Virus genome (UHGV): UHGV-2125590
Strand: one strand, 5' to 3'
Source of the DNA: a virus
Length of the DNA stretch: 39,827 nucleotides
A program made the position numbers and the translations under genes. Positions 11,067-31,106 of the stretch are shown piece after piece (positions within the stretch are counted from its first letter, which is position 1; the number at the start of each line of letters is the position of its first letter). A model generated the notes under the pieces. The model did no database searches. It was not told the DNA's origin and worked only from the letters and a program-made list of their open reading frames with translations.

Positions 11067-11397
11067 ATCAGCAGCAGAGCGCAAAGCCGCTCAGAGAGCC
11101 AGACAAGCTGCATCTGGTGTGCGTAAGCTGGAAATTGTGCTTGATGCTCAGGAAATTGAAATGCTGGAGCGTAACTGTGCCACGCGTCGCCCCGGGCGTG
11201 CGCCTTACGAATTTGGTGAGTATATAGCGTTACTGATCCGCCAGGATGATGCACGCGTGCGCGGGCGTATAAAATCGATCAGCAGAAAATGTTGCGGTAA
11301 GTGCGGCGAGAGAGTTCCAGTTAATTCATGCCCGTGTAATGGTGACTCGCAATGCTGGGTGACTAAAGGCTGGCATGAAACGAAATTAATAGTGTGA
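11059..11397 (+). CDS. hypothetical protein with basic N-terminus and Cys-rich C-terminus
   Basis: ATG 11059 with AAGGTGA RBS; C-terminal CCGKCGERVPVNSCPCNGDSQC. Confidence 0.5.
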   Translation: MAKSAAERKAAQRARQAASGVRKLEIVLDAQEIEMLERNCATRRPGRAPYEFGEYIALLIRQDDARVRGRIKSISRKCCGKCGERVPVNSCPCNGDSQCWVTKGWHETKLIV

Positions 11398-11405
11398 CAT
11401 GTCAC
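11394..11405. repeat. 12-bp perfect palindrome GTGACATGTCAC (copy 1 of 3)
   Basis: Exact string; flanked to give 14-mer TGTGACATGTCACG; between early genes and terS. Confidence 0.9.
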
Positions 11406-11414
11406 GAAGGTGTT

Positions 11415-11627
11415 ATGCCAAAAATACGCTACGACCTTGAAGATATGAGAGATAACTCAGCAAATTTTCCGAAAGAGGTTAAATTTCTCATGCATAAGTA
11501 TGGTTGCGCCAGGAGGGATATAGTTATCGACAGTCAGCACCCTTGCGGCGAGGATGTAATTTTCATTCGCGGTAAATGGGAAGGGTATCTTGACGAGAGT
11601 TTTTACGATGAATTTGATGGACTTTGA
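11415..11627 (+). CDS. hypothetical protein
   Basis: 70 aa from ATG 11415 (AAGGTG RBS); GTG start at 11394 lies inside the palindrome and is less likely. Confidence 0.4.
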   Translation: MPKIRYDLEDMRDNSANFPKEVKFLMHKYGCARRDIVIDSQHPCGEDVIFIRGKWEGYLDESFYDEFDGL

Positions 11628-11669
11628 ATACTGCCGCCAACTATGGCGGCTTTATTTTGCATGTTACTA

Positions 11670-11684
11670 TTACCACAACGGTAA
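11670..11684. promoter_or_regulatory. perfect TTACC-N5-GGTAA palindrome upstream of terS
   Basis: ATTACC-ACAAC-GGTAAC; imperfect second copy at 11686-11700. Confidence 0.5.
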
Positions 11685-11701
11685 CTATTACCACGGTGGT
11701 T

Positions 11702-12298
11702 ATGATGCCTGCTGAACCTAAAACCTATAAACGCAAATCAACGCAATTTAAGCCGCTCACAGCAATGCAGGAGGCTTATTGCCAGTCATACATCAAAACG
11801 CCTGAAAACCAGACTCAGGCAGCGATTAACGCAGGATTCTCCCCAAATACAGCGGCAGTTAAAGCCAGTGTCATGATGCGCGATGAACGCATTCAAAAAC
11901 GGATTGCCGAGCTGATGGAGGAGCGCAACAAACGAATGCGCGTCAGTGCTGATTACGTTCTCATGCGCCTGGTGGAGATCGATCAGATGGACGTGATCGA
12001 CATCCTCAACGACGATGGGAGCCTTAAACCAATCCGTGAGTGGCCGAAAATCTGGCGCACTACGCTTAGTGGCTTTGATCTGTCATCGACCATCATGAAC
12101 ATGAACGAGGATTCGATAGAGACAATCCTCAAAAAAATTAAATGGCCTGACAAGGTGAAGAACCTTGAGCTGATTGGTAAGCATGTTGATGTCAACGCGT
12201 TCAAAGAACGTCTGGATGTTAATGTGAATGTGACAATTGCTGATCGCATAGCAGCAGCCAGGAAGCGACTCAAAGAACGTCAGGATGGTAATCAGTGA
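11702..12298 (+). CDS. terS: terminase small subunit
   Basis: Immediately upstream of and overlapping TerL; start moved to ATG 11702 because the ORF-track N-terminal extension contains the palindromic motif and low-complexity sequence. Confidence 0.6.
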   Translation: MMPAEPKTYKRKSTQFKPLTAMQEAYCQSYIKTPENQTQAAINAGFSPNTAAVKASVMMRDERIQKRIAELMEERNKRMRVSADYVLMRLVEIDQMDVIDILNDDGSLKPIREWPKIWRTTLSGFDLSSTIMNMNEDSIETILKKIKWPDKVKNLELIGKHVDVNAFKERLDVNVNVTIADRIAAARKRLKERQDGNQ

Positions 12299-13770
12299 CA
12301 GATACAGCGTTATCTCCTGAAGAGCAGTTGATCGAGGATATTGCAGGGTTCACTCACGATCCGCTTGGCTATGCCCTCTATGCGTTCCCGTGGGGGGAAG
12401 AGGGTACTGAACTGGCACATGCCACCGGTCCACGTCAGTGGCAGGCCGATGCGTTCCGAGAGATACGTGATCACCTGCAGAATCCAGAGACGAGATATCA
12501 GCCGCTTATGCTGGCACGTGCTTCTGGTCACGGTATTGGTAAATCCGCATTCATCTCAATGCTGATCAACTGGGGCATGTCCACTTGCGAGGATTGTAAG
12601 GTCGTGGTGACCGCCAACACCGACAACCAGCTACGAACGAAGACCTGGCCGGAAATTATCAAGTGGTCGAACCTTGCTATCACGAAAGACTGGTTTACCT
12701 GTACCGCTACCGCGATGTACAGCAATGACCCTGGGCACGACAAGCGGTGGCGTGCTGACGCAATACCCTGGTCTGAGCACAACACTGAGGCGTTCGCCGG
12801 ACTACACAACGAGCGCAAACGCATCATCGTGGTGTTTGATGAAGCGTCGAACATTGCGGATCTGGTGTGGGAAGTTGCCGAAGGTGCGCTAACGGACGAA
12901 GACACTGAGATTATCTGGGTGGCGTTCGGAAACCCGACGCGTAATACCGGACGTTTCCGTGAATGTTTCCGCAAGTATAAACACCGCTGGAAAACTGCGC
13001 AGATTGACAGTCGGACGGTGGAAGGTACCAACAAACAGCAGTTGCAGAAATGGGTTGATGACTACGGGGAAGACAGCGACTTCGTTAAAATCCGTGTGCG
13101 TGGCATATTCCCTGATGCATCTGAATTGCAGTTTATCCCTACCGGTCTTACTGACGAGGCAATGAAACGGGTGGTAACCGCTGCGCAGGTTGCACATGCT
13201 CCGGTGATAATCGGCGTTGACCCGGCATACTCCGGCGTTGATGACGCTGTGATATACCTGCGGCAGGGGCTACACAGTAAGGTGCTGTGGACTGGCAACA
13301 AGACTACCGACGATCTGATTATGGCGAAGCGTATCGCTGACTTTGAAGACCAGTATCAGGCTGACGCGGTGTTCATCGACTTCGGTTACGGAACCGGTTT
13401 GAAGTCAATCGGTGACGGCTGGGGTCGTACATGGCAACTTGTTCCGTTCGGTGGCGCGTCTACTGACCCGCAGATGCTTAACAAGCGTGGGGAGATGTTC
13501 AACTCATGTAAGACATGGCTGAGGCTGGGCGGCATGCTGGATGACCAGGAAACAGCGGACGACCTGTCGACGGCAGAGTACAAAGTTCGCGTGGACGGTA
13601 AAATCGTTATCGAACCGAAGGAAGATATCAAAGAGCGACTTGGGCGTTCGCCGGGGAAAGGCGATGCGCTATTGCTGACGTTTGCTTTCCCGGTCTCGAA
13701 ACGCATAAATATACCTGGACAGCAAAGCCAGCAGGGAAGGGCCATAACGGATTATGACCCTTATGCTTAA
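12295..13770 (+). CDS. terL: terminase large subunit
   Basis: 491 aa; Walker-A-like ARASGHGIGKS; size and position typical; GTG start overlapping terS stop. Confidence 0.85.
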   Translation: MTDTALSPEEQLIEDIAGFTHDPLGYALYAFPWGEEGTELAHATGPRQWQADAFREIRDHLQNPETRYQPLMLARASGHGIGKSAFISMLINWGMSTCEDCKVVVTANTDNQLRTKTWPEIIKWSNLAITKDWFTCTATAMYSNDPGHDKRWRADAIPWSEHNTEAFAGLHNERKRIIVVFDEASNIADLVWEVAEGALTDEDTEIIWVAFGNPTRNTGRFRECFRKYKHRWKTAQIDSRTVEGTNKQQLQKWVDDYGEDSDFVKIRVRGIFPDASELQFIPTGLTDEAMKRVVTAAQVAHAPVIIGVDPAYSGVDDAVIYLRQGLHSKVLWTGNKTTDDLIMAKRIADFEDQYQADAVFIDFGYGTGLKSIGDGWGRTWQLVPFGGASTDPQMLNKRGEMFNSCKTWLRLGGMLDDQETADDLSTAEYKVRVDGKIVIEPKEDIKERLGRSPGKGDALLLTFAFPVSKRINIPGQQSQQGRAITDYDPYA

Positions 13771-13820
13771 TCCGCTGGTGGGGATAATACTGCTGATATC
13801 CTCTGGTGAGGATAAAACAA

Positions 13821-13840
13821 AGCCAGCTCATCGGCTGGCT
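13821..13840. terminator. bidirectional hairpin terminator between terL and the minus-strand moron
   Basis: AGCCAGC / GCTGGCT stem; T-rich on both flanks. Confidence 0.4.
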
Positions 13841-13844
13841 GTTT

Positions 13845-13856
13845 GTGACATGTCAC
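13845..13856. repeat. 12-bp palindrome GTGACATGTCAC (copy 2 of 3)
   Basis: Exact string; same 14-mer TGTGACATGTCACG as copy 1. Confidence 0.9.
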
Positions 13857-13860
13857 GGTG

Positions 13861-14235
13861 TTATTGCTCGCTTAACTTCTGCTTCAGCAAGTAACCTTCG
13901 AGCATCCAGATTTTGTTTACAGCATTCTGCCGGGCAATCTTCCGACCAATTTCTGCATCAAAGTTTTCCGGGCTTGCACAGGCACTCTCTCCGGTAACGG
14001 TGAAGCCATTCTTCAGTACCAATACGCAGAAAGTGAGAAGGTGCAGAGCATCAGGGGTGGCTTCGACATAAGGCTCCGGATTATAAATAAGGTCATCTTC
14101 TTTAGCCTGGTGGTCACCCTGCGCAGCAGTGAAAAAATGCTCACTGCAAATGAGGCCTTCAATTTTCTCGGGTGTTACACGCGGAGCGGTTTTGCCTTTC
14201 TCAACGATTTCTTTTTCGATTTGCTGGTCGTTCAT
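13861..14235 (-). CDS. phage gp49 / Sf6 gene 66-family protein (moron)
   Basis: 124 aa on the opposite strand to the late operon; family recalled from prophage annotations, not verified. Confidence 0.5.
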   Translation of the reverse strand: MNDQQIEKEIVEKGKTAPRVTPEKIEGLICSEHFFTAAQGDHQAKEDDLIYNPEPYVEATPDALHLLTFCVLVLKNGFTVTGESACASPENFDAEIGRKIARQNAVNKIWMLEGYLLKQKLSEQ

Positions 14236-14346
14236 AATCTCACCTTAAAAAAATGCCCGGCGAACCTGGCGAACTGGAAGCAATGAGTTATGCCTTCCGT
14301 GGCTGTACGGGTTTACAGCATGAAGTCATCGCAATGGCGTCCTGCT

Positions 14347-14390
14347 GTAAAAAGGGCGGTGATAGTCCTTCAAGGGAAACTATCACCGCC
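14347..14390 (-). terminator. strong rho-independent terminator downstream of tRNA-Arg
   Basis: 12-bp stem GGCGGTGATAGT / ACTATCACCGCC followed by T-run on the minus strand. Confidence 0.55.
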
Positions 14391-14433
14391 AAGCACCTGG
14401 AACTTCTGGCATCACGGTCCTTAGGCGTGATTC

Positions 14434-14510
14434 TGGCGTGGCATGCAGGATTCGAACCTGCGACCAACCGCTTAGAAGGCGGTTGCTCTGTCCAACTGAG
14501 CTAATGCCAC
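14434..14510 (-). tRNA. tRNA-Arg (anticodon UCU)
   Basis: 77-nt cloverleaf derived by hand: acceptor GTGGCAT/ATGCCAC, D-arm GCTC/GAGC, anticodon stem ACCGC/GCGGT with loop CT-TCT-AA, T-arm GCAGG-TTCGAAT-CCTGC, encoded CCA. Confidence 0.85.
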
Positions 14511-14832
14511 AACGCTGAGAGCACTTAGCCTGTTAAGGCGCCACACTTTGTCGCGGCTCCATAAATGCTCTCATCGTTGTACCCTCGTCTCTTCCGAGGC
14601 GTCACACCGAATCGCCGGGATGGTGAATCCCCGTGCGCGGAATAAAACCGCTCGACTTGCACATTCCGGCTACCTGGTTCGTTTGCCCGAGCAAGGGAGG
14701 GTGCCCCTTAAACGTATCCAGACCGCTATCGGCGCATGTGCCATACGCCGTACTGCTCAAAATAAAAGCTCACTCCACCTGTTCAATTTAACGACAAGCC
14801 AGTCAGGTTAATAACCGGAATGAACCCTTTGC

Positions 14833-14847
14833 TTACCTGAAAGGTAA
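14833..14847. promoter_or_regulatory. perfect TTACC-N5-GGTAA palindrome upstream of the portal operon
   Basis: TTACC-TGAAA-GGTAAT; TATGTGGTT at 14891-14899 downstream. Confidence 0.5.
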
Positions 14848-14937
14848 TAATTTGTGCGTTAAATGTCAACTATCTACGATAAATAAATCATATGTGGTTA
14901 AATTGGTAATAATTTAATTGCGTACGGAGTCATTGAT

Positions 14938-15144
14938 ATGTGCATGGGTAGCTCACCGTCAGTGCCTGCAACACCAGAAGTTCAGGCAGCACCACAGGAG
15001 CAGGATGCCGCCGTTGTTGATGCCCGCGACGAAGAAACTCGTCGCCGTCGCGCTGCTGCTGGTCGTAGTTCTACGCTGCTTACCGGTTCTCAGGGCGACA
15101 CATCAACCGCTAATACCAGCGGTAAAACGCTACTTGGTCAGTAA
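14938..15144 (+). CDS. hypothetical small protein preceding portal
   Basis: 68 aa; GGAG RBS with the same CCGGAGTCATTGA(A/T)ATG context as the portal start. Confidence 0.5.
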   Translation: MCMGSSPSVPATPEVQAAPQEQDAAVVDARDEETRRRRAAAGRSSTLLTGSQGDTSTANTSGKTLLGQ

Positions 15145-15158
15145 CCGGAGTCATTGAA

Positions 15159-16838
15159 ATGGCGGAAACAACTAAAGAGCGATTGAACAAACAGTTCGCA
15201 CAACTTGAAAGCGAGCGTCAGTCGTTCGAGCCGCACTGGCGCGAGTTGAGTGATTACATCAACCCGCGTGGTTCCCGCTTTCTGACTTCTGAGGTCAACC
15301 GTAACGATCGACGCAATACACGTATTATTGATTCGACCGGGACTATGGCGGCGCGCACTCTCGCCAGCGGCATGATGTCAGGCATCACAAGCCCCGCGCG
15401 TCCGTGGTTTCGCCTGGCTACGCCAGATCCTGAAATGATGGATTATGGCCCTGTTAAGTTGTGGCTTGAGGCGGTGCAGAACCGCATGAACGATATGTTC
15501 AATAAGTCGAATCTCTATCAGTCGCTGCCGCAGTTATACGGAAGCCTCGGCACATACAGCACTGGTGCAATGGCAGTGCTGGAGGATGACGAGGACATCA
15601 TTCGCACAATGCCATTCCCGATAGGCAGTTACTACCTGGCTAACTCACCTCGTGGCAGTGTGGACACCTGTTTTCGCAAGTTCTCTATGACTGTTCGTCA
15701 GCTTGTTCAGGAGTTCGGGCTAAATAACGTCAGCGAATCCGTAAAAAGCATGTGGGAAAGCGGAACCTACGAGAAGTGGATTGAAGTGATGCATTCGGTT
15801 TACCCGAACATTGACCGCGATACATCGAAGCTGGATAGCAAGAACAAGCCATTCAAATCGGTTTATTACGAGGTTGGTGGCGATAACGACAAGTTGTTGC
15901 GTGAGTCCGGATTCGATGAGTTTCCAATTATGGCTCCGCGCTGGGAAGTTAACGGCGAAGATGTTTATGGATCATCATGCCCGGGTATGCTGGCGCTTGG
16001 ACCTGTTAAGGCATTGCAGCTTCTCCAGAAGCGCAAGTCGCAGTTGATTGATAAAGCCACCAATCCGCCGATGGTTGCTCCGACTTCCCTCAAGAATCAG
16101 CGTGCCTCCCTTCTTCCTGGCGACATCACGTATATCGATCAGATTACTGGTCAGGATGGTTTCAGGCCTGCTTATCTGGTTAACCCCAGTACAGCAGATT
16201 TGGTGGCAGACATTCAGGACACCCGTCAAATCATTAACAGCGCCTACTTTGTCGATCTGTTCATGATGTTGCAGAACATCAATACCCGCTCGATGCCTGT
16301 TGAAGCGGTGATCGAAATGAAAGAAGAAAAACTTCTGATGTTGGGGCCGGTTCTGGAGCGTCTGAACGACGAATGTCTTAATCCTCTCATTGACCGCGCT
16401 TTCTCGATGATGGTGCGTAAAAACATGCTGCCGCCACCGCCTGACGCGATGGAAGGTATGCCCCTGAAGGTCGAATACATTTCCGTCATGGCTCAGGCGC
16501 AGAAGTCTATCGGTCTGTCCAGTCTGGCGTCTACGGTCAACTTCATTGGTCAACTTGCGCAAGCGAAACCAGAAGCTCTCGACAAACTCAACGTTGATCA
16601 GGCGATCGATGCATTCGCTGATATGTCCGGAGTGTCTCCAACCGTCATTGTTCCGCAGGAACAGGTTGAGCAGGCTCGCCAGCAACGGGCACAGCAACAA
16701 CAGCAGCAACAAATGATGGCGATGGGGATGGCGGCGGCACAGGGTGCCAAGACGCTAAGCGAAGCTAAAACTTCGGATCCGAGTGTTTTGTCAGCTATGG
16801 CGAATGCAGTTAGTGGTCAGGGTGGGCAATCACAATGA
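15159..16838 (+). CDS. portal (head-to-tail connector) protein, T7/epsilon15-like
   Basis: 559 aa; position after terL; N-terminal pattern recalled from podovirus connector proteins. Confidence 0.75.
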   Translation: MAETTKERLNKQFAQLESERQSFEPHWRELSDYINPRGSRFLTSEVNRNDRRNTRIIDSTGTMAARTLASGMMSGITSPARPWFRLATPDPEMMDYGPVKLWLEAVQNRMNDMFNKSNLYQSLPQLYGSLGTYSTGAMAVLEDDEDIIRTMPFPIGSYYLANSPRGSVDTCFRKFSMTVRQLVQEFGLNNVSESVKSMWESGTYEKWIEVMHSVYPNIDRDTSKLDSKNKPFKSVYYEVGGDNDKLLRESGFDEFPIMAPRWEVNGEDVYGSSCPGMLALGPVKALQLLQKRKSQLIDKATNPPMVAPTSLKNQRASLLPGDITYIDQITGQDGFRPAYLVNPSTADLVADIQDTRQIINSAYFVDLFMMLQNINTRSMPVEAVIEMKEEKLLMLGPVLERLNDECLNPLIDRAFSMMVRKNMLPPPPDAMEGMPLKVEYISVMAQAQKSIGLSSLASTVNFIGQLAQAKPEALDKLNVDQAIDAFADMSGVSPTVIVPQEQVEQARQQRAQQQQQQQMMAMGMAAAQGAKTLSEAKTSDPSVLSAMANAVSGQGGQSQ

Positions 16839-17131
16839 CAGATTACGAAGACGATCAACTGAAAGAAGAAAACGCCCGTAAGCAACGTGACATGGCACAG
16901 CGTGAAATTGATGACATTTGCTTTGTCATGAGCAGTGAACAGGGGCGTCGCGTTGTCTGGTCGGTGCTGGAGAAAGGTCGTGTGTTTTCCGCTATCTCAC
17001 CGATGGATGCTATGGCAATGGCATTTAATGAGGGGCAACGCAATCTGGCGCTGGAACTGTTTCAGCGCGTTATGGCGCATTGCCCTGAACAGTATTTGAA
17101 GATGGCCAAAGAGGCCAGTGAACAGGAGTGA
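16835..17131 (+). CDS. hypothetical head-assembly protein
   Basis: 98 aa; ATGA overlap with portal stop. Confidence 0.5.
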   Translation: MTDYEDDQLKEENARKQRDMAQREIDDICFVMSSEQGRRVVWSVLEKGRVFSAISPMDAMAMAFNEGQRNLALELFQRVMAHCPEQYLKMAKEASEQE

Positions 17132-17133
17132 TC

Positions 17134-17829
17134 ATGAATTTATTTGAGCGTTTGCTGTATCGCCGTCTTTGCAATGAGCAACCAGTCGATGGTGGAGCAG
17201 CTCCGGCTGCGTCAGAACCGTCAGCGCCTGCAGGTGATAACCCTGCTCCAGTTGGTGATCCATCACAACAGGAAGGTGATAAGCCACAACCTGTTTCTGA
17301 TGGCGATAAACCTGCTGATGACAAAAAGCCTGAAAACGATAAGCAGGATGAAAAAAAGGGCGGCGATAAACCAGAGGGTGCGCCTGAGAAGTACGAGTTT
17401 CAGGCTGCCGAAGGCGTAGAGCTGGATACAGAAGCGTTGAAGGAATTCGAGCCGGTGGCGCGAGAACTAAACCTGACCAACGAGCAAGCGCAAAAGCTGG
17501 TTGATGCTTATCCGAAGATTCTGGCAGGTGTGCAGCAGCGCCAGGCAGAAGCCTGGCAGAAAACAACCGAGCAGTGGGCTGCTGATGTAAAAGCTGACAA
17601 AGAAATTGGTGGCGACAAGTTGATTTCTAACCTTAGCGCCGCACAGCGTGCGCTTGACCAGTTCGGGACACCCGAGCTCAAAGAATATCTGAACACCACC
17701 GGGCTGGGTAATCACCCTGATCTGGTCAAAACGTTCGTGAAAATCGGAAAGGCGATGTCTGAAGATGGCATGGTCACCGGTGGTAATGAAGGCCAGCGTA
17801 GTGCGGCCGAAGTGCTCTATGGCAAATAA
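17134..17829 (+). CDS. scaffolding protein
   Basis: Pro/Asp/Lys-rich low-complexity N-terminal half then helical segment; between portal and capsid genes; ATG 17134 with GGAG RBS. Confidence 0.6.
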   Translation: MNLFERLLYRRLCNEQPVDGGAAPAASEPSAPAGDNPAPVGDPSQQEGDKPQPVSDGDKPADDKKPENDKQDEKKGGDKPEGAPEKYEFQAAEGVELDTEALKEFEPVARELNLTNEQAQKLVDAYPKILAGVQQRQAEAWQKTTEQWAADVKADKEIGGDKLISNLSAAQRALDQFGTPELKEYLNTTGLGNHPDLVKTFVKIGKAMSEDGMVTGGNEGQRSAAEVLYGK

Positions 17830-17843
17830 GAGAGGAAATGACA

Positions 17844-18830: not shown

Positions 18831-18881
18831 CGCCTGTTATTAACCTGTGGGTCGTAACAGACCCACTAATGGAGAAAGAAG

Positions 18882-19319: not shown

Positions 19320-19329
19320 GGTGATATCG

Positions 19330-19659: not shown

Positions 19660-19677
19660 GCCTCGCGAATCCGACAA

Positions 19678-19698: not shown

Positions 19699-19709
19699 CA
19701 GGAGTGTAT

Positions 19710-24118: not shown

Positions 24119-26631
24119 TGCCAGTCGTACCAACAGTATCCGGCCGTCAGGTTCAGAGCCGTGGAGTTCAGTCAGCAGGCTTGCAGACGTTTTCTCAGCC
24201 AGGTATTGGTGATGCTTTTGTTCGGGCAGGGACAGAGGCAATTGATGTTTTTGGTCAGGCAAAACAGCGTGCCAATATCGCTCTGGCTCAGGAGGCATCT
24301 CTTAACCTCAGTCAGATAAGCAGTGATCTGCTGAATAATCCTGAAACAGGATTGCTTAACCTGAAAGGGAAAAATGCTATTGGAAAAGGTCAGGAGTATA
24401 CGCAGCAGTTTGATGCTCAGGTCGAACAACTGGCTATGTCGCTGCCGGATGAACAGGCTCGTAATGCTTTCATGCAGCAGGCGCAGCAGCAGCGCATTCA
24501 GTTCACTACGCAGGCAGGGCGGCACGAGATAGGGCAAATAAATGCCTACGAAGAAGGCCAGTTTCAGGCTACGCTGCTGAACAATGGTAAAAATGCCGCA
24601 GCATTGTATGGCGACAACGCCGCATACGTATTGGCTAATAAGCAAACTTTCCAGCAAATTGAGGATTACGGCATTGCACATGGCTGGAGTGACGAGCAAA
24701 TCCAGGCCAAGAAAATCGAGTTTAAAGAGAAGGTTGCTGATGCTGCATTGTCCCAGTGGTCGGCAAACAATGCGACCGCATTCATCCAAAGTAATGGCGA
24801 GTTAAGTGATACTGCTGCTGGAGCTCGCCGTGCTGTAGCAGATAGTGACTCTTCCGAGCGTGCCCGTGGCATACGCAACAATAACCCAGGAAATCTCGAA
24901 TACAGCAAAACTAATCCGTGGGTAGGCCAGACCGGTGATGATGGTCGATTTGCTAAATTCGAAACACCTGAACACGGGATTCGTGCATTAGGGCGGAACC
25001 TGATGTCGTATCAGAGGCAGGGTATTGATACCGTCAGCGAGATAATTAATCGCTGGGCACCGCCTACTGATAAAAATGACACTATGTCGTATATCAAAGC
25101 AGTGTGCGAACAACTTGGCGTTTCTGCTGATGAGCCTCTCGATGCATCTAATCCTGATACCCTGAAGGCGCTTTGTGCAGCCATTATCCATCATGAGAAC
25201 GGTAGCCAGCCATACAGTGATCAGCAGTTAACTGCTGGTGTCAGTGCAGCACTTGGTTTATCAACAATTCCAACCAACACCAAACGCTATACCGGTAATG
25301 CAGCATTCGATGCGGCATCTCCTGAGGCGCAGGCAAGTTTTATGCGACAGGCGGATCAACTGCGTCGGCAGCAGCAGGCTGAATATAAAACGATGATTGA
25401 CAGCAAGGTTCGCGATGCGACAGCTGCGTATATGCGGGGCGTTGAATTTCCTAACCCACCTGGTGAGGCTGATTTTATTGCAGCTTATGGGGTCAGAGAA
25501 GGAAACCTGCGATATACCGAGTTCAGAAATACGCAAATCGCCGGACAGTATATAGGCTCTTTCCGCAACATGCCGACAAGCAGCATTACAGCATATGTTG
25601 AGCAATTACGCCCGGATACTGGTGAGACAGGGGAGGGTTATGCGGCACGAGCCGCTCTTTATGACAACGTTGTGTCGGCTGCAAGCCAGGTGATAAAGCA
25701 GCGACAGGCTGATCCTGTACAGTTCTCTCTTGCCGCCGGACAGGCAAAGCCTATCGACATGAGCAATAAGGATAACTTTGGACAGAGCGTTGCCTTGCGT
25801 GCTGCTCAGGTCAGTGACCTTGCTAAGTCATATGGCACTCCACTGACGTTCTTTTCCAAAGACGAGGCCAATCAGATCGGTGTTTTCTTTCGTGATGCTC
25901 CAGTTTCCCAACAGGCAGCATATCTCGATACCATCAGGCAGAGCACTGGTGGTGGGCAGGTGTATATGTCAGCACTACAGCAGATCAGTGCCAACGCTCC
26001 ATCTGCTGCCGTTGCCGGGATACTGATGGACAAGCCTGGTGGTATTTTGGCAGAAAAAAACTGGTTTAATCCGGATGTTTCCGTGTCTCCTGAAACCGCT
26101 GCGCAGACAATTCTTACTGGCGCGGCGGCTCGTAAAGGTACTGATGATGCGAAAGGTATTCCGATGCCTAAAGATGCTGATCTTCGCCTTGAGTTTTCTG
26201 ACATGGTGAAGGATGCATTTGCTGGTGATGCTCAGGGGGCATCAATGGCATACGAGATCGCAAAGGACTATTACGCTGGTGTGATGGCGAAAAAAGGCGT
26301 GATATCAGGCGAAATTGACACTGATATCTGGAAGCAGGCTGTTAACGTAGCTACAGGTGGCGTGCATGACTATAACGGAATGGGGAATGTCCTTTTGCCG
26401 TGGGGAATGTCTGCAGAGCAATTCGATAAGCAGGTTAATCAGGCTTGGAATGAACAAGTGGTCGGCACCGGGATAAAAACACCGCCTGGTCAGTATGGTT
26501 TGCAAAGTTACGGCGATAGTCAGTACCTGGTGAAACTTGGTACTGGTTATCTGCTGAAAGATGATGGTTCTCCTGTTGTTCTTGATCTGACACAGAAGCG
26601 TCAGAGATTCTCCGGAGATATTCCGCAATGA
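24118..26631 (+). CDS. internal virion / DNA-ejection protein
   Basis: 838 aa from ATG 24118 (GGAGG RBS); contains RNNNPGNLEY...RFAKFETPEHGIRALGRNL segment. Confidence 0.5.
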   Translation: MPVVPTVSGRQVQSRGVQSAGLQTFSQPGIGDAFVRAGTEAIDVFGQAKQRANIALAQEASLNLSQISSDLLNNPETGLLNLKGKNAIGKGQEYTQQFDAQVEQLAMSLPDEQARNAFMQQAQQQRIQFTTQAGRHEIGQINAYEEGQFQATLLNNGKNAAALYGDNAAYVLANKQTFQQIEDYGIAHGWSDEQIQAKKIEFKEKVADAALSQWSANNATAFIQSNGELSDTAAGARRAVADSDSSERARGIRNNNPGNLEYSKTNPWVGQTGDDGRFAKFETPEHGIRALGRNLMSYQRQGIDTVSEIINRWAPPTDKNDTMSYIKAVCEQLGVSADEPLDASNPDTLKALCAAIIHHENGSQPYSDQQLTAGVSAALGLSTIPTNTKRYTGNAAFDAASPEAQASFMRQADQLRRQQQAEYKTMIDSKVRDATAAYMRGVEFPNPPGEADFIAAYGVREGNLRYTEFRNTQIAGQYIGSFRNMPTSSITAYVEQLRPDTGETGEGYAARAALYDNVVSAASQVIKQRQADPVQFSLAAGQAKPIDMSNKDNFGQSVALRAAQVSDLAKSYGTPLTFFSKDEANQIGVFFRDAPVSQQAAYLDTIRQSTGGGQVYMSALQQISANAPSAAVAGILMDKPGGILAEKNWFNPDVSVSPETAAQTILTGAAARKGTDDAKGIPMPKDADLRLEFSDMVKDAFAGDAQGASMAYEIAKDYYAGVMAKKGVISGEIDTDIWKQAVNVATGGVHDYNGMGNVLLPWGMSAEQFDKQVNQAWNEQVVGTGIKTPPGQYGLQSYGDSQYLVKLGTGYLLKDDGSPVVLDLTQKRQRFSGDIPQ

Positions 26632-28430
26632 GTTACTTTGGCCTTAATCCAGTAAACCAGAATCAGCAACTTGACGAAGCAGCATCAAATCCAGCGGGCT
26701 TTAACAGCGATGTTGGTTTTTTCGACAATGCTGTAGGAGCGGCATTGTCTGGTTTGTACTCCGGGCTGGTGGCAAAGCCAGATCAGTTGCTATGGGCAGG
26801 GATGGATAAAATCGTATCCCCGATTGCTCAGTTTATTAACGAAAACACCTCGCTCAATGATACTTCAGTTTCATACATTGCCGAGCAGAGAAAACTAGCA
26901 GAGCAGCAGGTTAAGCGGCTGACGCCTGATGCCGCGACAACCGGAACCGCCGGGCAGGTTCTTTATGGGTTGTTCGATATGGGCGGGCAGGCTGTTGTCG
27001 GTACAACGCTCGGTGGTCCTGTCGGAGGTGCGGCGGCGGTAACTTCGCTACAGGGTTTTTCTGAGTTTGAACGGCTGACAGCACTGGGTGTTGATTTCAG
27101 GACGGCGCAGGAAGCGGGATTAGTGCAGGGCATTACTGCTGGTGCCGGAACACTGATCCCTATGAGCCTCGGGTTACGTGCTGGTGGTGCGCTGGCGGAA
27201 GGTGTGGCGGCTCAGCTTGCGCGGACGGGTGAGAGTTCAGTGCGACGCGCCGCAGCAACAGCAGTACGTGCAACGCCAGATATTGCCTATGCCGCAGGTA
27301 CAAATATTGCGTTCGGTATGGCACAGCGTGGGCTTACTGCAAAAACACTTCGTGATGGTGGCTATAGCGAAATGGCTAACCAGTATGATGTGTTGGATCG
27401 ACAGGCAATTGCTATTGATGCTGTTCTTGGGGTGGCGTTTGGTGGTGTCGGCAGATTTATTAACTCTCGCGGCGAGTCTACAAACGCACCAAATTTTTCA
27501 CCAGTTGATATCGATGCTGCACTGGCGGCGAATGCCGCTCATCATGCTGAAATTGATATTGCGCCCGGCGTGCCGATCAACGTGCTTTCGCGCAATTCTC
27601 ACATTCAGGCTCTGCGAAAAGCTATGTCTGATGTTAGCCAGGGGAGACCTGTAGACGTTGCCAGCATTGTTGAGTCTGCATCTTTCAGTGAAATTCCTGG
27701 GCGCAAGAGTCTGCTGTCTCAGGCAGTTAATGAGGCTCTGTCATCTGTAGATGATGGAGTAACGGCGCGTGCTATAGAAAATCGGTTGCTTGAAGAACAG
27801 GCCGCGCAGCTTTTGCCGCGTGGAGATAGACAGGTTTACCAGTCTGAAATCGCTAATAGCCAACGAATTATTGAAAATCTCACTGAACAGCGTGCACAAA
27901 TTCTTGCAGAAGAGCCAACCGGTAGCGGTAAAGCTTTGTCTCGTGCTCGATCAGATAAACAGGCCAGACTTCGCGATATTGATCAACGAATCCGGCAGGC
28001 ACAAGAACGCCTGGAATTTTCCCGTAACGCGTTGGCACCGCACGAGCCTGGCGGTCAGCTTTTTGAAGCTCGAGCAGAACTGGCTCGGAGACAGCAGGCA
28101 GAAAGTGAACTTAATGCTCAGGCTGTTTCATTCTATAAAACAGCAGAGGTCAGGACGCCAGACGAAGTAGCTCCTTTTGAGCCTGATAAAATATTGCAAC
28201 AGGCAGAACAAAAAATGATGTCAGATAAGGCAGGAGATATTGATCTGCGCATAGCTGAAGACTCGCTGCTTGAATCACCTGACATGATAATCACCGTGCT
28301 GGATGATGATGGTAATCCACAATCGCGCAGCGCGCGTGAAGTACTGGATGAAGCGAACAGGGAAAGTGAGCAGGCAATACAGGATTCAAGCCTGTTTGAT
28401 GTCGCTGTGGCGTGTTTCTTGAGAGGTTAA
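26628..28430 (+). CDS. internal virion / DNA-ejection protein
   Basis: 600 aa; Gly/Ala-rich N-terminal region and coiled-coil C-terminus. Confidence 0.5.
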   Translation: MSYFGLNPVNQNQQLDEAASNPAGFNSDVGFFDNAVGAALSGLYSGLVAKPDQLLWAGMDKIVSPIAQFINENTSLNDTSVSYIAEQRKLAEQQVKRLTPDAATTGTAGQVLYGLFDMGGQAVVGTTLGGPVGGAAAVTSLQGFSEFERLTALGVDFRTAQEAGLVQGITAGAGTLIPMSLGLRAGGALAEGVAAQLARTGESSVRRAAATAVRATPDIAYAAGTNIAFGMAQRGLTAKTLRDGGYSEMANQYDVLDRQAIAIDAVLGVAFGGVGRFINSRGESTNAPNFSPVDIDAALAANAAHHAEIDIAPGVPINVLSRNSHIQALRKAMSDVSQGRPVDVASIVESASFSEIPGRKSLLSQAVNEALSSVDDGVTARAIENRLLEEQAAQLLPRGDRQVYQSEIANSQRIIENLTEQRAQILAEEPTGSGKALSRARSDKQARLRDIDQRIRQAQERLEFSRNALAPHEPGGQLFEARAELARRQQAESELNAQAVSFYKTAEVRTPDEVAPFEPDKILQQAEQKMMSDKAGDIDLRIAEDSLLESPDMIITVLDDDGNPQSRSAREVLDEANRESEQAIQDSSLFDVAVACFLRG

Positions 28431-28435
28431 ATTAA

Positions 28436-30910
28436 ATGAGACAGGAATGTATACAAGCGGTCCAGCAGGCGGCGCAGCGCACGTTAACGGCGCGAGAAAT
28501 ACAGAACATTGAAGACCGCATTTATCGAAATATGCGCTCCATTGCTCGTGATGACCCGATGTCGTGGAGACAACTTTCCGAATCAGAGCGGCTATATCGT
28601 GCAGCACAATTGGCATCTGAAGAATTACAGCGAGAAGCGGCATTAAAGAAACGTCGTGTGGCCCTCACTATAGCCGCACGTCAGAGATTGGATAAATTTA
28701 TCAATAGCTATCAAGGGGCTGATGGGAAACTTGGCGCTCTTAACCGTACTATTGCTTTTAATGCAGACGGTAAATCGAATTTCCTCTCTGTTGAGTCCAG
28801 AACAAAAGCCACTCGTGATTATGCATTGAGTCAATTGCAAGAGGCATTTGAAGCAGTTGATCCTCGCTTTTTTGGCCTGTTTGAAGATGAAGCTGGCGTG
28901 CGTGACCTGGTATATGAAATGCGAGGGCAAAATACTGGCAATGCTAAAGCAAGAAAAGGTGCTAAGGCGTGGAGAGAAGTTACAGAGCTGCTGCGCCGCC
29001 GGTTTAATGATGCTGGTGGGGACATTGGCTATCTCGAAAACTGGGGGATCCCTCAACATCATTCTATGGAAAAGGTTGGGGCGGTATCAAAGGATAAGTG
29101 GGTTGGCGATGTTATAGGTAAGCTGGATCGCAAATATTATACCCGAGCCGATGGACAACTGATGAACGATGCCGAGTTGTCTGCATTTCTTGGAGAGGCT
29201 TATAACACGATCGCTACTGGTGGGCTGAATAAGCTTACTGATACCGGAATGCGAATTTCCGGCGCACGTGCTAACCGTGGTAATGCATCACGACAGATAC
29301 ATTTCAAAGATGCAGATTCCTATCTCCAATATCAACAACTTTATGGTGATCGCTCTCTATGGGAAATCATGGTCGGTCACCTGGAAGGTATCAGTAAAGA
29401 TATTGCTCTGGTGGAAACATATGGTCCAAACCCAGATCATGTTTTCCGCTCCCTTCTTGATCAGGTTAAGGCAGAAACGGCAACAGCTAACCCGAGTAAA
29501 ACCGGTAAAGTCGAGCGGCTGGCGAACAACACAGAGAATCTGTACAACTTTATTTCCGGAAAGACACAGCCTGTAGCGAATCCGCACATCGCGCGATGGT
29601 CTGACAATATCCGCAACTGGCTGGTTGCCAGCAGACTCGGATCCGCGTTGCTGTCATCGTTCTCTGATCTTGGAACCATGTATCTGTCTGCGAAGGTTAC
29701 CAACCTTCCAATGAACCAGTTATTCCGCAACCAGCTTGAAGCTATGGACCCAACGAACCGTACAGAACTTGCGCGGGCGCGCCGCGCTGGTCTGGCGATG
29801 GAATCTCTACTTGGCAGCGTTAACCGCTGGGCGATGGATAATATGGGGCCGTCAGTGTCTCGTTGGGCGGCAACGGCGGTAATGCGTGCCAGTGGGCTTA
29901 CAGCATGGTCAGATGCGCACAAGCGCGCCTATGGCGTAACCATGATGGGAAGCCTGGGAGAAGTAGTGTCACGGACACCAGACCTTCGTAGCCTCGATGA
30001 CTCTGATTTTCGTATCCTGAAAAGCAAAGGGATTACTGACACAGACTGGAGCGTATGGAAGCTGGCGCAACAGGAGGACTGGGGGAACGGTAATAATACG
30101 ATGCTGACACCGGAAAGCATTATGCGTATCCCTGATTCAGCAGTTAAACATCTTGGTGAGTCTGAACGCGTGAAATTTGAGGCAATGCGTAAACTGCTCG
30201 GTGCCGTAACTGAAGAAGTTGATATGGCTGTTATTACACCGGGAGCACGTGAGCAACTGATAACCGGTTCTGGTATTCAGCGTGGAACATGGAAAGGTGA
30301 ATTAACGAGAAGTGTTTTCCTGTTTAAATCGTTCCCTATCTCGGTGGTTATGCGTCACTGGTCACGCGCTATGGGTATGCCGTCTGCTGGTGGGCGTGCG
30401 GCATATATTGCGACGTTTATTGCCAGTACGACCATTCTTGGCGCTTTGTCGCAGCAACTTAACGACCTTGCGTCTGGTCGTAATCCTCGTGAGATGACAG
30501 GAGAAGATGCTGCTAAATTTTGGCTTGGTGCTCTACTGAAAGGTGGTGGTCTTGGCCTTTACGGTGACTTTTTATTGTCAGATCACACTAGGTACGGAAG
30601 CGGCGCGCTGGCGTCGATGCTTGGCCCGGTAGCTGGTCTGGTTGATGACGTAGTGAAGATTGCTCAGGGCATACCGTTAAATGCTGTGGAAGGGAAGAAT
30701 GAGCAGACTGGTGGTGATCTGGTCAAGCTGGGGAAAGGTCTGATGCCAGGTGCGAATCTCTGGTACTTAAAGGCGGCTCTCGATCACATGATCTTTAACC
30801 AGATGCAGGAGTATTTTTCACCAGGTTATTTGCGTAAAATGGAGCAACGTTCGAAGAAAGAGTTTAACCAGACATACTGGTGGCGACCTCAGGATGTCAC
30901 TCCGCAATAA
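28436..30910 (+). CDS. internal virion / DNA-ejection protein
   Basis: 824 aa; last large gene of the operon. Confidence 0.5.
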   Translation: MRQECIQAVQQAAQRTLTAREIQNIEDRIYRNMRSIARDDPMSWRQLSESERLYRAAQLASEELQREAALKKRRVALTIAARQRLDKFINSYQGADGKLGALNRTIAFNADGKSNFLSVESRTKATRDYALSQLQEAFEAVDPRFFGLFEDEAGVRDLVYEMRGQNTGNAKARKGAKAWREVTELLRRRFNDAGGDIGYLENWGIPQHHSMEKVGAVSKDKWVGDVIGKLDRKYYTRADGQLMNDAELSAFLGEAYNTIATGGLNKLTDTGMRISGARANRGNASRQIHFKDADSYLQYQQLYGDRSLWEIMVGHLEGISKDIALVETYGPNPDHVFRSLLDQVKAETATANPSKTGKVERLANNTENLYNFISGKTQPVANPHIARWSDNIRNWLVASRLGSALLSSFSDLGTMYLSAKVTNLPMNQLFRNQLEAMDPTNRTELARARRAGLAMESLLGSVNRWAMDNMGPSVSRWAATAVMRASGLTAWSDAHKRAYGVTMMGSLGEVVSRTPDLRSLDDSDFRILKSKGITDTDWSVWKLAQQEDWGNGNNTMLTPESIMRIPDSAVKHLGESERVKFEAMRKLLGAVTEEVDMAVITPGAREQLITGSGIQRGTWKGELTRSVFLFKSFPISVVMRHWSRAMGMPSAGGRAAYIATFIASTTILGALSQQLNDLASGRNPREMTGEDAAKFWLGALLKGGGLGLYGDFLLSDHTRYGSGALASMLGPVAGLVDDVVKIAQGIPLNAVEGKNEQTGGDLVKLGKGLMPGANLWYLKAALDHMIFNQMQEYFSPGYLRKMEQRSKKEFNQTYWWRPQDVTPQ

Positions 30911-30919
30911 GGATGAGAA

Positions 30920-31060
30920 ATGATTGCTTTTATTCTTGTTGTGTTTGCGCTTGTTGCACTTGGCGTTATGAACCGTAAATGTATCATTGATGATGGTGAA
31001 TTTGCTGTTGCAGTTATTTTGATATTATCTGGTGTAGCAGGGTACATAGGCTTGTCATAA
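30920..31060 (+). CDS. 46-aa two-helix membrane protein (holin-like candidate)
   Basis: Hand translation MIAFILVVFALVALGVMNRKCIIDDGEFAVAVILILSGVAGYIGLS; AAGGA RBS. Confidence 0.35.
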   Translation: MIAFILVVFALVALGVMNRKCIIDDGEFAVAVILILSGVAGYIGLS

Positions 31061-31067
31061 CGTGAGC

Positions 31068-31079
31068 GTGACATGTCAC
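31068..31079. repeat. 12-bp palindrome GTGACATGTCAC (copy 3 of 3, inverted flanks)
   Basis: Flanks give CGTGACATGTCACA, the exact reverse complement of the 14-mer at copies 1 and 2. Confidence 0.9.
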
Positions 31080-31106
31080 AGGCCGCTTTCGCGGCCTTGT
31101 TCTTTT
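31080..31106 (+). terminator. rho-independent terminator ending the structural operon
   Basis: AGGCCGC-TTTC-GCGGCCT followed by TGTTCTTTT. Confidence 0.5.

What the first reader, a model, noticed from the sequence alone, without database searches (positions are those of the whole stretch)
11393..31080. Identical 14-mer TGTGACATGTCACG present three times at module boundaries
The 12-bp perfect palindrome GTGACATGTCAC occurs at 11394, 13845 and 31068. Copies 1 and 2 share the same asymmetric 14-mer and bracket the terS-terL module in direct orientation; copy 3 is the exact reverse complement and sits just after the last structural gene. Chance recurrence of a 14-mer three times in 40 kb is negligible. 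The 4-bp spacing between TGTGA and TCACA half-sites is wrong for CRP (which needs 6). Possible roles: a regulator site, a packaging-related site, or a module-boundary recombination sequence.
Basis: seen in the sequence. Interest (0 to 1): 0.55.

Follow-up and report, generated by a model that had tools for sequence, protein, structure and literature searches.

The report
Phage regulator's matS-like binding sites
The three identical palindromes are real, are conserved across many unrelated temperate phages, and always travel with one small uncharacterised DNA-binding-type gene whose stop codon lies inside one copy, so they are most likely that protein's binding sites; they look like the host chromosome's matS sites with one base removed.

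Summary
Observation confirmed. GTGACATGTCAC occurs exactly at 11394, 13845 and 31068, far above chance. The window is a phiV10/epsilon15-type (Uetakevirus) prophage. The same palindrome sits at the same three places in epsilon15, SPN1S, Tyrion and phiV10, while the flanks diverge.

The element does not follow the terminase or structural genes. It follows one gene, the 112-aa epsilon15 gp49 / N15 gp46-family protein (window 11059-11397), whose TGA stop lies inside copy 1. Homologues in unrelated phages (myovirus ZF40, Pantoea AH07, a P2-like Yersinia phage, N15/phiKO2, Vibrio K303) and in 35 of 36 prophage loci from about 30 species carry GTGAC-N2-GTCAC. That is 55 sites in 670 kb against about 0.6 expected, and none with any spacer from 0 to 5 other than 2.

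The protein has no Pfam family. Its model matches ribbon-helix-helix DNA binders and it has four conserved cysteines.

The site equals the E. coli matS consensus GTGACATTGTCAC minus its central base. No sequence homology to MatP was detected.

Best reading: these are cognate binding sites of a phage RHH protein, placed at gene and operon 3' ends. What binding achieves is inferred only: a transcription boundary or roadblock, or MatP-like DNA organisation. A packaging site, CRP site, RNA element and the phage repressor's operator are not supported.

The parts
11393..11406 (.). Copy 1 of the 14-bp site (palindrome 11394-11405). It overlaps the TGA stop codon (11395-11397) of the gp49-family gene.
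   Evidence: The same arrangement (xxG TGA C..GTCAC) is seen in epsilon15, SPN1S, Tyrion and phiV10 and in 21 of 36 genome loci.
13844..13857 (.). Copy 2. It lies 4 nt beyond the stop of the leftward gp50-like gene and 4 nt from the terminator hairpin 13821-13840.
   Evidence: It is an invariant island in a 12-genome alignment in which the neighbouring hairpin stem changes with compensatory substitutions.
31067..31080 (.). Copy 3 (reverse complement of the 14-mer). It lies 7 nt after the stop of the 46-codon ORF 30920-31060 and abuts the terminator hairpin 31080-31097.
   Evidence: It is also present after gp17-like genes of only 24-28% identity in viral contigs.
11059..11397 (+). Gene for the 112-aa epsilon15 gp49 / N15 gp46-family protein: a basic N-terminal helix, a ribbon-helix-helix-like core and a C-terminal 4-Cys motif. 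It is the proposed binder of the palindromes.
16886..16899 (.). Degenerate copy (GTGACATGGCAC, 1 mismatch) inside CDS 16835-17131. Its status is uncertain.
   Evidence: Conserved in phiV10 but absent from epsilon15, SPN1S and Tyrion. The same variant is the partner of an exact copy in Yersinia phage vB_YenM_42.18.
11633..11650 (+). Intrinsic-terminator-like hairpin ending the early-right transcription unit, downstream of copy 1 and of the inserted 70-codon ORF.
   Evidence: The homologous hairpin lies 22-40 nt after copy 1 in epsilon15 and phiV10.
13821..13840 (-). Terminator hairpin between the convergent terL and gp50-like genes. Read leftward the order is copy 2, hairpin, T-run.
31080..31097 (+). 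Terminator hairpin of the long structural operon. Read rightward the order is copy 3, hairpin, T-run.
11415..11627 (+). 70-codon ORF (phrog_1541, unknown function) inserted between copy 1 and the terminator. It is absent from phiV10 and epsilon15.
13861..14235 (-). gp50-like gene (Pfam Phage_gp49_66). Its 3' end abuts copy 2.
   Evidence: PF13876, E 2.4e-34. In Tyrion, copy 2 follows this gene rather than terL.

Best explanation
The palindromes are the cognate DNA sites of the prophage's own small protein, the epsilon15 gp49 / N15 gp46 family member encoded at 11059-11397.

Shown:
- The gene and the site are inherited together across unrelated temperate phages.
- One copy usually overlaps the gene's own stop codon.
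- The half-sites GTGAC/GTCAC and the 2-bp spacer are invariant from E. coli to Vibrio.
- Copies embedded in coding sequences are held constant while the surrounding protein sequence drifts.

Inferred:
- The protein is a ribbon-helix-helix dimer that places its beta-ribbon on the dyad of the 12-bp palindrome. The basic N-terminal helix and the Zn-type C-terminal domain add contacts or mediate oligomerisation.
- Pairs of copies spaced 32-33 bp apart in two phages suggest that dimers can cooperate.

More weakly inferred (function): in this prophage the three copies sit at the 3' ends of the three successive rightward transcription units (early-right, terS-terL, structural), next to terminators. 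The bound protein therefore most likely acts as a boundary or roadblock element. It would limit read-through between units and between convergent genes. At copy 1 it could throttle its own gene and what lies downstream, in the way LacI bound at the end of lacI truncates lacI mRNA. A MatP-like, non-transcriptional role is the main alternative.
For: Reality and conservation:
- Searches show three exact copies at homologous positions in epsilon15, SPN1S and Tyrion (phiV10's first copy has one mismatch), as invariant islands.

Linkage to the gene:
- ZF40 (myovirus, 67% id homologue): exact copy 2 nt after the gene's stop, plus 2 more copies.
- AH07: variant copy overlapping the stop, plus an exact copy elsewhere.
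- P2-like Yersinia phage (39% id): an exact copy and a 1-mismatch copy 33 bp apart.
- phiKO2 and N15 (37% id): GTGACTGGTCAC overlapping the stop, plus 1-2 further copies.
- Vibrio K303 (32% id): GTGACACGTCAC twice.
- 36 prophage loci: 55 sites in 670 kb against 0.57 expected, and 35 of 36 loci are positive. Spacer 2 gives 55 sites, while spacers 0, 1, 3, 4, 5 and 7 give 0.
- It is the only window ORF with homologues in all five of those other phages.

DNA-level selection:
- Sites inside phrog_2479 and cII-like genes always encode (C/R)DMS(Q/H), while the flanking residues diverge.

Fold:
- There is a weak hit to the LexA-regulated protein family NF008671 (which I recall as the RHH protein YbfE), E 0.004-0.05.
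- Four conserved cysteines.

Placement:
- Terminators lie next to copies 2 and 3.
- 57 of 79 sites have an open frame ending within 15 nt upstream, against 12% of random positions.
Against: - No binding experiment exists, and I found no paper on this protein family or this sequence.
- The putative DNA-facing strand residues differ between homologues (K/E/V, T/T/R, R/D/V), yet the half-site does not change. That is unusual for a private protein-operator pair and hints at an additional constraint.
- Geometry argues against simple roadblock-assisted termination: RNA polymerase stalled at copy 2 or copy 3 would stop inside or before the hairpin.
- In lambdoid phages the copies lie inside early genes rather than at operon ends, so one transcriptional logic does not fit all contexts.
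- The gene-end statistic is inflated, because the site itself contains TGA in both orientations.
Confidence: 0.68

Rival explanations
1. The same protein-site pair, but working like MatP/matS rather than as a transcription element. The RHH protein would bind a few scattered sites to organise or bridge phage DNA, or to displace or stall an SMC complex such as MukBEF. Its 12-bp spacing would keep it orthogonal to host MatP.
For: - The site equals the matS consensus GTGACATTGTCAC minus the central base, and the flanks of a published matS oligo (T...G) also match.
- Specificity is frozen across homologues of 32-100% identity. That is typical of housekeeping site systems rather than immunity operators.
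- There are 2-3 scattered copies per genome, some inside genes.
- True matS is absent from these loci and from about 500 prophages (PMC3603311), which fits selection for orthogonality.
- Every host seen belongs to the Enterobacterales, Vibrio or Aeromonas. From my own knowledge, MatP and MukBEF are confined to this same group.
Against: - No detectable sequence homology to MatP: hhalign probability 0.1, and neither of MatP's two Pfam families (PF06303, PF17414) was hit.
- The protein lacks MatP's four-helix bundle and coiled coil.
- Looping by MatP itself is doubtful in vivo (PMC8053113).
- No benefit to a phage from such a system is known.
- The host-range overlap could simply reflect how far sequence searches reach.
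Confidence: 0.2
2. The protein is the missing late-gene activator or antiterminator of Uetakeviruses. It would be Q-like in logic: the gene sits at the end of the early operon and its site lies just downstream, before a terminator and the late genes. The copies would be its loading sites.
For: - The gene order (regulator, site, terminator, terS) mirrors lambda Q, qut/pR', tR'.
- Each half-site GTGACA is a 5-of-6 match to the -35 hexamer.
- In epsilon15, SPN1S, Tyrion and L013, copy 1 is followed at 17 nt by TAAATT and then directly by a terminator.
- In N15 a copy lies about 25 nt upstream of the -35 of a promoter-like element.
Against: - The -10-like element is absent in this window, in phiV10 and in other classes of right flank.
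- Copies 2 and 3 face no downstream genes in either direction.
- ZF40, AH07 and N15/phiKO2 carry separate Q-like genes.
- Each late operon has its own Rep-type operator.
- Sites prefer 3' ends rather than promoters.
Confidence: 0.07
3. The sites are bound by host MatP, or by another host factor that reads GTGAC half-sites. The linked phage gene would be unrelated to them or would only modulate them.
For: - The half-sites are identical to matS.
- The half-sites stay invariant even though the phage protein's putative reading residues vary.
Against: - The spacer is strictly 2 and never the 3 of matS. For an RHH ribbon centred on the dyad, a 1-bp change should matter (inference).
- True matS is counter-selected in prophages outside Ter. 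Three MatP sites in a prophage of a type that integrates at guaA (PMC9782041) would therefore be unexpected.
- The tight gene-site linkage, including overlap with the stop codon, is unexplained by a host factor.
Confidence: 0.04
4. The copies are passive boundary or linker sequences, or a packaging (pac) signal, or an RNA element, with no dedicated binding protein.
For: - Flanking sequence classes change exactly at the palindrome edges at all three sites, so they coincide with mosaic junctions.
- Copies 1 and 2 bracket terS-terL.
- In Vibrio K303 a copy lies 31 nt upstream of terS.
Against: - Present in phages with unrelated terminases and cos ends (P2-like, N15), and inside coding sequences far from any module junction.
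- A 12-bp perfect match is a poor recombination substrate by itself.
- The RNA hairpin is only -1.2 kcal/mol, no better than shuffles, and the predicted context folds differ between copies.
- None of these readings predicts the strict spacer, the Y/R flanks or the co-inheritance with one gene.
Confidence: 0.03

Closest known systems
MatP-matS of E. coli (Ter macrodomain organiser; matS = GTGAC-RNY-GTCAC)
   Same: Identical 5-bp arms GTGAC/GTCAC. The phage site is the matS consensus GTGACATTGTCAC minus its central base. The binder is, or is predicted to be, a ribbon-helix-helix dimer preceded by a basic helix. A few sites are scattered over the replicon, and specificity is conserved across Enterobacterales and Vibrio.
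   Different: 12 bp rather than 13 bp, strictly (55 against 0). The protein is 112 aa, has no four-helix bundle or coiled coil, and has a 4-Cys C-terminal domain instead. No sequence homology is detectable. It is phage-encoded, with one site overlapping its own stop codon.
Phage and plasmid ribbon-helix-helix regulators (P22 Arc/Mnt, CopG, omega, ParG, AmrZ)
   Different: Their operators overlap promoters of the genes they control. Here the copies sit at 3' ends of genes or operons, or inside coding sequences. There is an extra Zn-type domain, and the protein matches no Pfam family at all.
LacI bound near the 3' end of lacI (roadblock giving truncated, tmRNA-tagged LacI; Abo et al. 2000, from my own knowledge)
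   Same: A DNA-binding protein with a site at the 3' end of its own coding sequence, which allows feedback by blocking elongation.
   Different: The effect is demonstrated for LacI only. Here it is an inference from the overlap of the site with the stop codon.
Rep (epsilon15 gp38 / SPC32H Rep) operators ATTACC-N5-GGTAAT of the same phages
   Same: Another palindrome repeated many times in the same genomes, at module edges. It is annotated in the epsilon15 record.
   Different: A different sequence with a different placement. It lies upstream of operons, at promoters, with 11 copies in this window, whereas the GTGAC palindrome lies at operon ends.
Scattered SopB centromere sites of N15/phiKO2
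   Same: A few copies of a palindrome dispersed through a phage genome, some near regulatory regions (annotated in phiKO2).
   Different: A different sequence and a ParB-type binder, serving plasmid partition. The present element also occurs in integrating phages.

Membership tests
MatP/matS system | 13-bp site GTGAC-RNY-GTCAC (3-bp centre) | tested here: not met
   The spacer is always 2 bp. Across 36 loci there are 55 sites with N2 and 0 with N3, and the window, epsilon15, SPN1S, Tyrion, ZF40 and AH07 have no N3 site. The matS definition comes from PMC3603311 and PMC8669397.
MatP/matS system | Protein with MatP's two Pfam domains (PF06303, PF17414): N-terminal four-helix bundle, RHH, C-terminal coiled coil | tested here: not met
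   No Pfam hit even at E up to 10. hhalign against E. coli MatP gives probability 0.1. The protein is 112 aa, with only about 20 residues before the strand and a 4-Cys tail. MatP's Pfam domains are as listed.
MatP/matS system | Sites confined to the Ter macrodomain; MukBEF displacement; ZapB link | not testable with these tools
   Requires ChIP, Hi-C or genetics.
Ribbon-helix-helix (Arc/MetJ/CopG) DNA-binding proteins | Beta-alpha-alpha fold forming an intertwined dimer | tested here: inconclusive
Ribbon-helix-helix (Arc/MetJ/CopG) DNA-binding proteins | Specific binding to a short symmetric operator | not testable with these tools
   Only co-occurrence is shown. EMSA or ChIP is needed.
Classical phage repressor/operator (immunity) pair | Operators overlap the promoters they control and lie in the immunity region; specificity differs between heteroimmune phages | tested here: not met
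   There is no copy in the window's immunity region (5400-6500). That region carries TTACC-N5-GGTAA sites instead. The copies lie at 3' ends. The same half-sites are used from E. coli to Vibrio.
CRP binding site | TGTGA-N6-TCACA | tested here: not met
   The spacing is N4, read directly from the sequence.
pac/cos packaging signal | Linked to the terminase genes and terminase type; one per genome at the packaging start | tested here: not met
   There are three copies per genome. The element is present in phages with unrelated terminases or cos ends (ZF40, P2-like, N15), at positions away from the terminase genes. Virion ends were not mapped.
Lambda Q-type antiterminator with a qut site | Binding element inside a late promoter that is followed by a terminator; the protein is the phage's only late regulator | tested here: not met
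   A promoter-like GTGACA-N17-TAAATT plus terminator occurs only in the epsilon15-type right flank and not in this window. ZF40, AH07 and N15/phiKO2 have separate Q-like genes.
Intrinsic terminator or structured RNA element | Stable RNA hairpin, G+C-rich, followed by a U-run | tested here: not met
   The palindrome alone folds at -1.2 kcal/mol with a z-score of 0, and the context folds are inconsistent. The real terminators are the separate neighbouring hairpins.

The most novel reading that the evidence does not exclude
Diverse temperate phages of MatP/MukBEF-bearing gamma-proteobacteria carry a private, orthogonal 'mini MatP/matS' system. It consists of a small RHH-Zn protein and 2-3 copies of a matS-like site shortened by exactly one base pair. 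The phage would use it to organise or pair its DNA, or to interfere with host SMC or chromosome-organising machinery on phage DNA, rather than to regulate promoters.
Probability: 0.2. Interest if true: 0.8.

Novelty: new variant of a known kind. Interest (0 to 1): 0.62.

Why it matters
The gene is annotated only as 'hypothetical protein'. It is present in 637 of 5426 complete E. coli genomes and in temperate phages of four unrelated architectures, yet neither the protein nor its site appears in the literature I could search.

The analysis pairs an orphan protein family with a precisely defined 14-bp target, so the pair can be tested directly by EMSA, ChIP or site mutation.

Two features are unusual for a phage regulator. 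Its sites lie at gene and operon ends or inside genes rather than at promoters. Its specificity is frozen from E. coli to Vibrio.

The near-identity to matS, with a strictly different spacing, raises a concrete question: do phages carry their own MatP-like system, or at least avoid cross-talk with the host's? This complements the reported absence of true matS from prophages.

Tried and rejected
1. Packaging site. Rejected: the element follows the gp49-family gene into phages with unrelated terminases.
2. phiV10 record ends inside copy 1, which could have been a physical genome end. Rejected: the record is simply cut after the last gene's stop codon.
3. Rep repressor operator. Rejected: Rep-type sites are TTACC-N5-GGTAA. 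They occur 11 times, at operon starts and in the immunity region.
4. RNA hairpin or terminator component. Rejected.
5. Late promoter with a Q-like element. It is seen only in the epsilon15-type flank and not here.
6. Sequence homology to MatP. hhalign and Pfam were negative. My attempt to build a MatP profile failed because the 120 hits listed were nearly all 97-100% identical.
7. PDB sequence search with the single protein and with the profile gave nothing meaningful.
8. Literature. The epsilon15 genome paper is not held. The 12-mer is found in no paper. A 'gp46' detected in lysogens of telomere phage NAR688 turned out to be the cB-like repressor under that paper's own numbering, not the N15 gp46 homologue.
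9. Scan from the site side. Of these, 46 held the gene within the stored fragment and about 20 more held Uetakevirus markers. The remainder cannot be interpreted, because the stored stretches are fragments and chance matches are expected.
10. Frequency of the 12-mer in whole host chromosomes.

Full report
**1. The observation**

The 14-mer TGTGACATGTCACG is present exactly at 11393-11406 (+), 13844-13857 (+) and 31067-31080 (-). Allowing 2 mismatches gives 7 strand-matches against 0.42 expected in dinucleotide-preserving shuffles, and no shuffle reached 7. The 12-bp palindrome GTGACATGTCAC is exact at 11394, 13845 and 31068. A one-mismatch copy, GTGACATGGCAC, lies at 16887 inside a coding sequence.

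**2. What the window is**

The region matches phiV10, epsilon15-like coliphages and related prophages at 95-98% identity. It is a Uetakevirus-type prophage. The layout is:
- integrase at 193-1443;
- Rep-like repressor at 5523-6107;
- an early-right operon ending in a 112-aa gene at 11059-11397;
- terS and terL (to 13770);
- a leftward gp50-like gene at 13861-14235;
- the portal-to-gp17 structural operon (to 30910) plus a 46-codon ORF (30920-31060);
- leftward accessory genes, then the tail spike at 34434-37556.

**3. Conservation**

The same palindrome lies at the same three positions in several relatives:
- epsilon15: 39612, 2142, 19517;
- SPN1S: 38653, 2174, 19662;
- Enterobacter phage Tyrion: 41755, 2702, 20377;
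- phiV10: 39101 (with one mismatch), 2262, 19493.

In alignments of 5-12 genomes the palindrome is an invariant island. The flanks fall into several unrelated sequence classes that begin exactly at its edge. The stems of the neighbouring terminator hairpins vary with compensatory changes.

In Tyrion, copy 2 follows the gp50-like gene rather than terL. Copy 3 persists after gp17-like genes of only 24-28% identity.

**4. What it travels with**

Copy 1 overlaps the TGA stop codon of the 112-aa gene. This protein is epsilon15 gp49 / phiV10 p55, described in those records as similar to N15 gp46. It belongs to phrog_536 ('transcriptional regulator') and has no Pfam family. Every source calls it a hypothetical protein.

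Its homologues occur in phages with unrelated virion and packaging genes, and the site goes with them:

| Phage (type) | Identity to window protein | Sites found |
|---|---|---|
| Pectobacterium ZF40 (myovirus) | 67% | Exact copy 2 nt after the stop; two more exact copies flanking the immunity region |
| Pantoea AH07 | 57% | GTGACCTGTCAC overlapping the stop; one exact copy elsewhere |
| Yersinia vB_YenM_42.18 (P2-like) | 39% | One exact and one 1-mismatch copy, 33 bp apart |
| phiKO2 | 37% | GTGACTGGTCAC overlapping the stop; one further copy in repA |
| N15 | not measured | GTGACTGGTCAC overlapping the stop; copies in repA and ahead of the ant operon |
| Vibrio K303 | 32% | GTGACACGTCAC twice |

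A scan of one genome per bacterial species with a family alignment gave 36 loci from about 30 species of Enterobacterales. The results were:
- 35 of the 36 loci contain GTGAC-N2-GTCAC, and the one exception is cut about 350 nt after the gene.
- In 21 loci the site overlaps the stop codon in the same phase.
- In total there are 55 sites in 670 kb against 0.57 expected.
- As a built-in control, spacers of 0, 1, 3, 4, 5 and 7 bp give 0 sites, and 6 bp gives 1.
- The gp49-like ORF is the only window ORF with homologues in all five other site-bearing phage types. The next best, integrase, is shared with two.

Pooled over 76 sites, the base before each half-site is a pyrimidine in 150 of 152 cases. 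The motif is therefore the 14-bp YGTGAC(A|T)GTCACR, with the centre AT in 59 of 76 sites.

**5. Selection acts on the DNA**

In lambdoid-type prophages the extra copies lie inside two unrelated genes, a phrog_2479 gene in the leftward operon and a cII-like gene in the rightward operon. In eight such genes the 12 nt are identical and are read as (C/R)DMS(Q/H). The protein sequence on both sides has diverged almost completely. Coding constraint therefore does not explain the conservation.

**6. The protein**

An alignment shows invariant or near-invariant Arg residues in an N-terminal basic helix, an RRPGR loop and four cysteines: C79-x2-C82, C91 and C99.

The AlphaFold2 monomer model has medium confidence (pLDDT 68.5). 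It shows an extended segment at 22-28, followed by helices 30-41 and 52-75, then the Cys-rich loop and a last helix.

The family is small, with 205 clusters at 50% identity among 1.84 billion representatives. It is nevertheless common in E. coli, occurring in 637 of 5426 complete genomes.

**7. The matS resemblance**

The phage site GTGACA|TGTCAC is that consensus with the central base removed. The Yersinia variant GTGACG|CGTCAC also keeps the R...Y pattern. MatP reads matS with an RHH domain helped by a four-helix bundle (PMC12756933).

The phage protein is not detectably homologous to MatP. hhalign gives probability 0.1, aligning only the second RHH helix, and there is no Pfam hit to either MatP domain. 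It lacks MatP's bundle and coiled coil.

True 13-bp matS is absent from all the phage loci. It was also reported absent from about 500 E. coli and Salmonella prophages. The relationship is therefore one of mechanism and target shape, not of family membership. Whether it reflects remote ancestry, convergence or selection for orthogonality to MatP is open.

**8. Where the copies sit and what that suggests**

Rep-type operators (TTACC-N5-GGTAA, as annotated in epsilon15) occur 11 times in the window. They lie in the immunity region and directly upstream of terS (11670), the portal operon (14833), the tail-spike gene (34315) and other units. The GTGAC palindromes occupy the opposite ends:
- Copy 1 ends the early-right unit. 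It is followed here by an inserted 70-codon ORF and then the terminator 11633-11650.
- Copy 2 lies between the convergent terL and gp50-like genes, next to hairpin 13821-13840.
- Copy 3 lies between the last ORF of the structural operon and terminator 31080-31097.

Read in the direction in which the hairpin is followed by a T-run, copies 2 and 3 share the order stop codon, 4-7 nt, site, 0-4 nt, hairpin, T-run.

Across all phages, 57 of 79 sites have an open frame of at least 60 codons ending within 15 nt upstream, against 12% of random positions. This figure is inflated because the site contains TGA. Even so, many cases are genuine TAA or TAG gene ends.

Such placement is unlike promoter operators. 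It fits a protein that marks or enforces the ends of transcription units, or one whose sites are merely tolerated there.

Three points count against a simple roadblock:
- the stall geometry relative to the hairpins does not work;
- the copies embedded in genes in lambdoid phages do not fit one transcriptional logic;
- the specificity is frozen even though the putative DNA-facing strand residues differ between homologues.

That last property is more typical of housekeeping site systems such as MatP/matS or ParB/parS than of phage immunity operators. For this reason I keep a MatP-like role as the main alternative, at 0.2.

**9. Rejected readings**

- CRP: wrong spacing.
- Rep operator: different sequence and placement.
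- pac site: the element occurs in phages with unrelated terminases, with three copies per genome.
- RNA element: -1.2 kcal/mol, no better than shuffles.
- Q-like late promoter element: a GTGACA-N17-TAAATT plus terminator arrangement exists only in the epsilon15-type flank and not here, and other host phages have their own Q.
- A proteomics lead for 'gp46' in a telomere phage concerned a different protein.

**10. Verdict**

The finding is real. It resolves into a specific, previously undescribed pairing: a phage RHH/4-Cys protein family and its 14-bp matS-like site. Each genome carries one copy at the gene's own stop codon and one or two more at gene or operon ends.
- Identity of the binder: about 0.8 likely.
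- The full statement, including a boundary or roadblock function: 0.68 as phrased, with the function flagged as inference.
- Novelty: a new variant of a known kind (RHH protein plus palindromic sites, MatP/matS-like in target).
- Interest: 0.62.

Noticed in passing
window 5389, 5451, 6163, 8450, 8512, 11670, 14833, 32057, 33102, 33195, 34315: A second, larger family of palindromes, TTACC-N5-GGTAA, occurs 11 times. The copies lie in the immunity region and just upstream of terS, the portal operon, the tail-spike gene and several accessory genes. It matches the 'repressor' binding sites annotated in the epsilon15 record. This implies that the phage repressor directly controls every operon, including the late ones.
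   Followed up: partly
window 11415-11627: A 70-codon ORF (phrog_1541, unknown function) is inserted between copy 1 and the early-operon terminator. phiV10 has only a short remnant there and epsilon15 has nothing. At least five unrelated right-flank classes start exactly at the palindrome edge in different prophages.
   Followed up: partly
window 11624-11700: The mechanical terS ORF start (TTG at 11624; phiV10p01 is annotated the same way) overlaps the terminator hairpin 11633-11650 and a Rep-type operator at 11670. The true terS start is probably downstream of the operator, as in epsilon15.
   Followed up: no
window 14355-14390 (- strand): A long 14-bp-stem terminator-like hairpin (GGCGGTGATAGTTT...ACTATCACCGCC followed by a T-run) lies upstream of the gp50-like gene on the minus strand. 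It would insulate that gene from leftward transcription.
   Followed up: no
window 13861-14235 (-): The gp50-like gene (Pfam Phage_gp49_66) exists as several very different alleles at the same place in related phages. In phage Huey, the record's features under the match to this region are annotated 'anti-CRISPR protein | hypothetical protein'.
   Followed up: no
L003 (phiV10) 39101 across the record ends: The phiV10 record is linearised in the middle of copy 1. That copy carries one mismatch (GTGACATGTTAC), whereas all other relatives have the exact sequence.
   Followed up: partly
L004 (epsilon15) 26618; L005 (SPN1S) 26722: A further near-copy (GTGACATGGCAT in epsilon15, GTGACATGTCAT in SPN1S) lies at the end of the Rz spanin gene near attP. 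This part of the prophage lies outside the window.
   Followed up: no
L169 (N15) 4551-4562 (record 28550): The third N15 copy lies about 25 nt upstream of the -35 of a promoter-like element (TTGACG-18-TAGAGT). That element faces the terminator and the antirepressor operon (genes 32-30). The position is more like that of an activator or upstream element than a roadblock.
   Followed up: partly
L031 10355 and 10387; L009 11675 and 11708: In a Providencia prophage and in Yersinia phage vB_YenM_42.18, two copies lie 32-33 bp apart, which is three helical turns. This suggests cooperative binding of two dimers on one face of the DNA.
   Followed up: no
L007 14594, L031/L033 and L043/L045 upstream ORFs; L010 7370-8050: In several non-Uetakevirus contexts the gp49-family gene lies directly downstream of a large ORF of about 650-760 codons (a DNA methyltransferase in ZF40), or near a smaller DNA methyltransferase gene (phiKO2). 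I did not examine whether this is meaningful.
   Followed up: no
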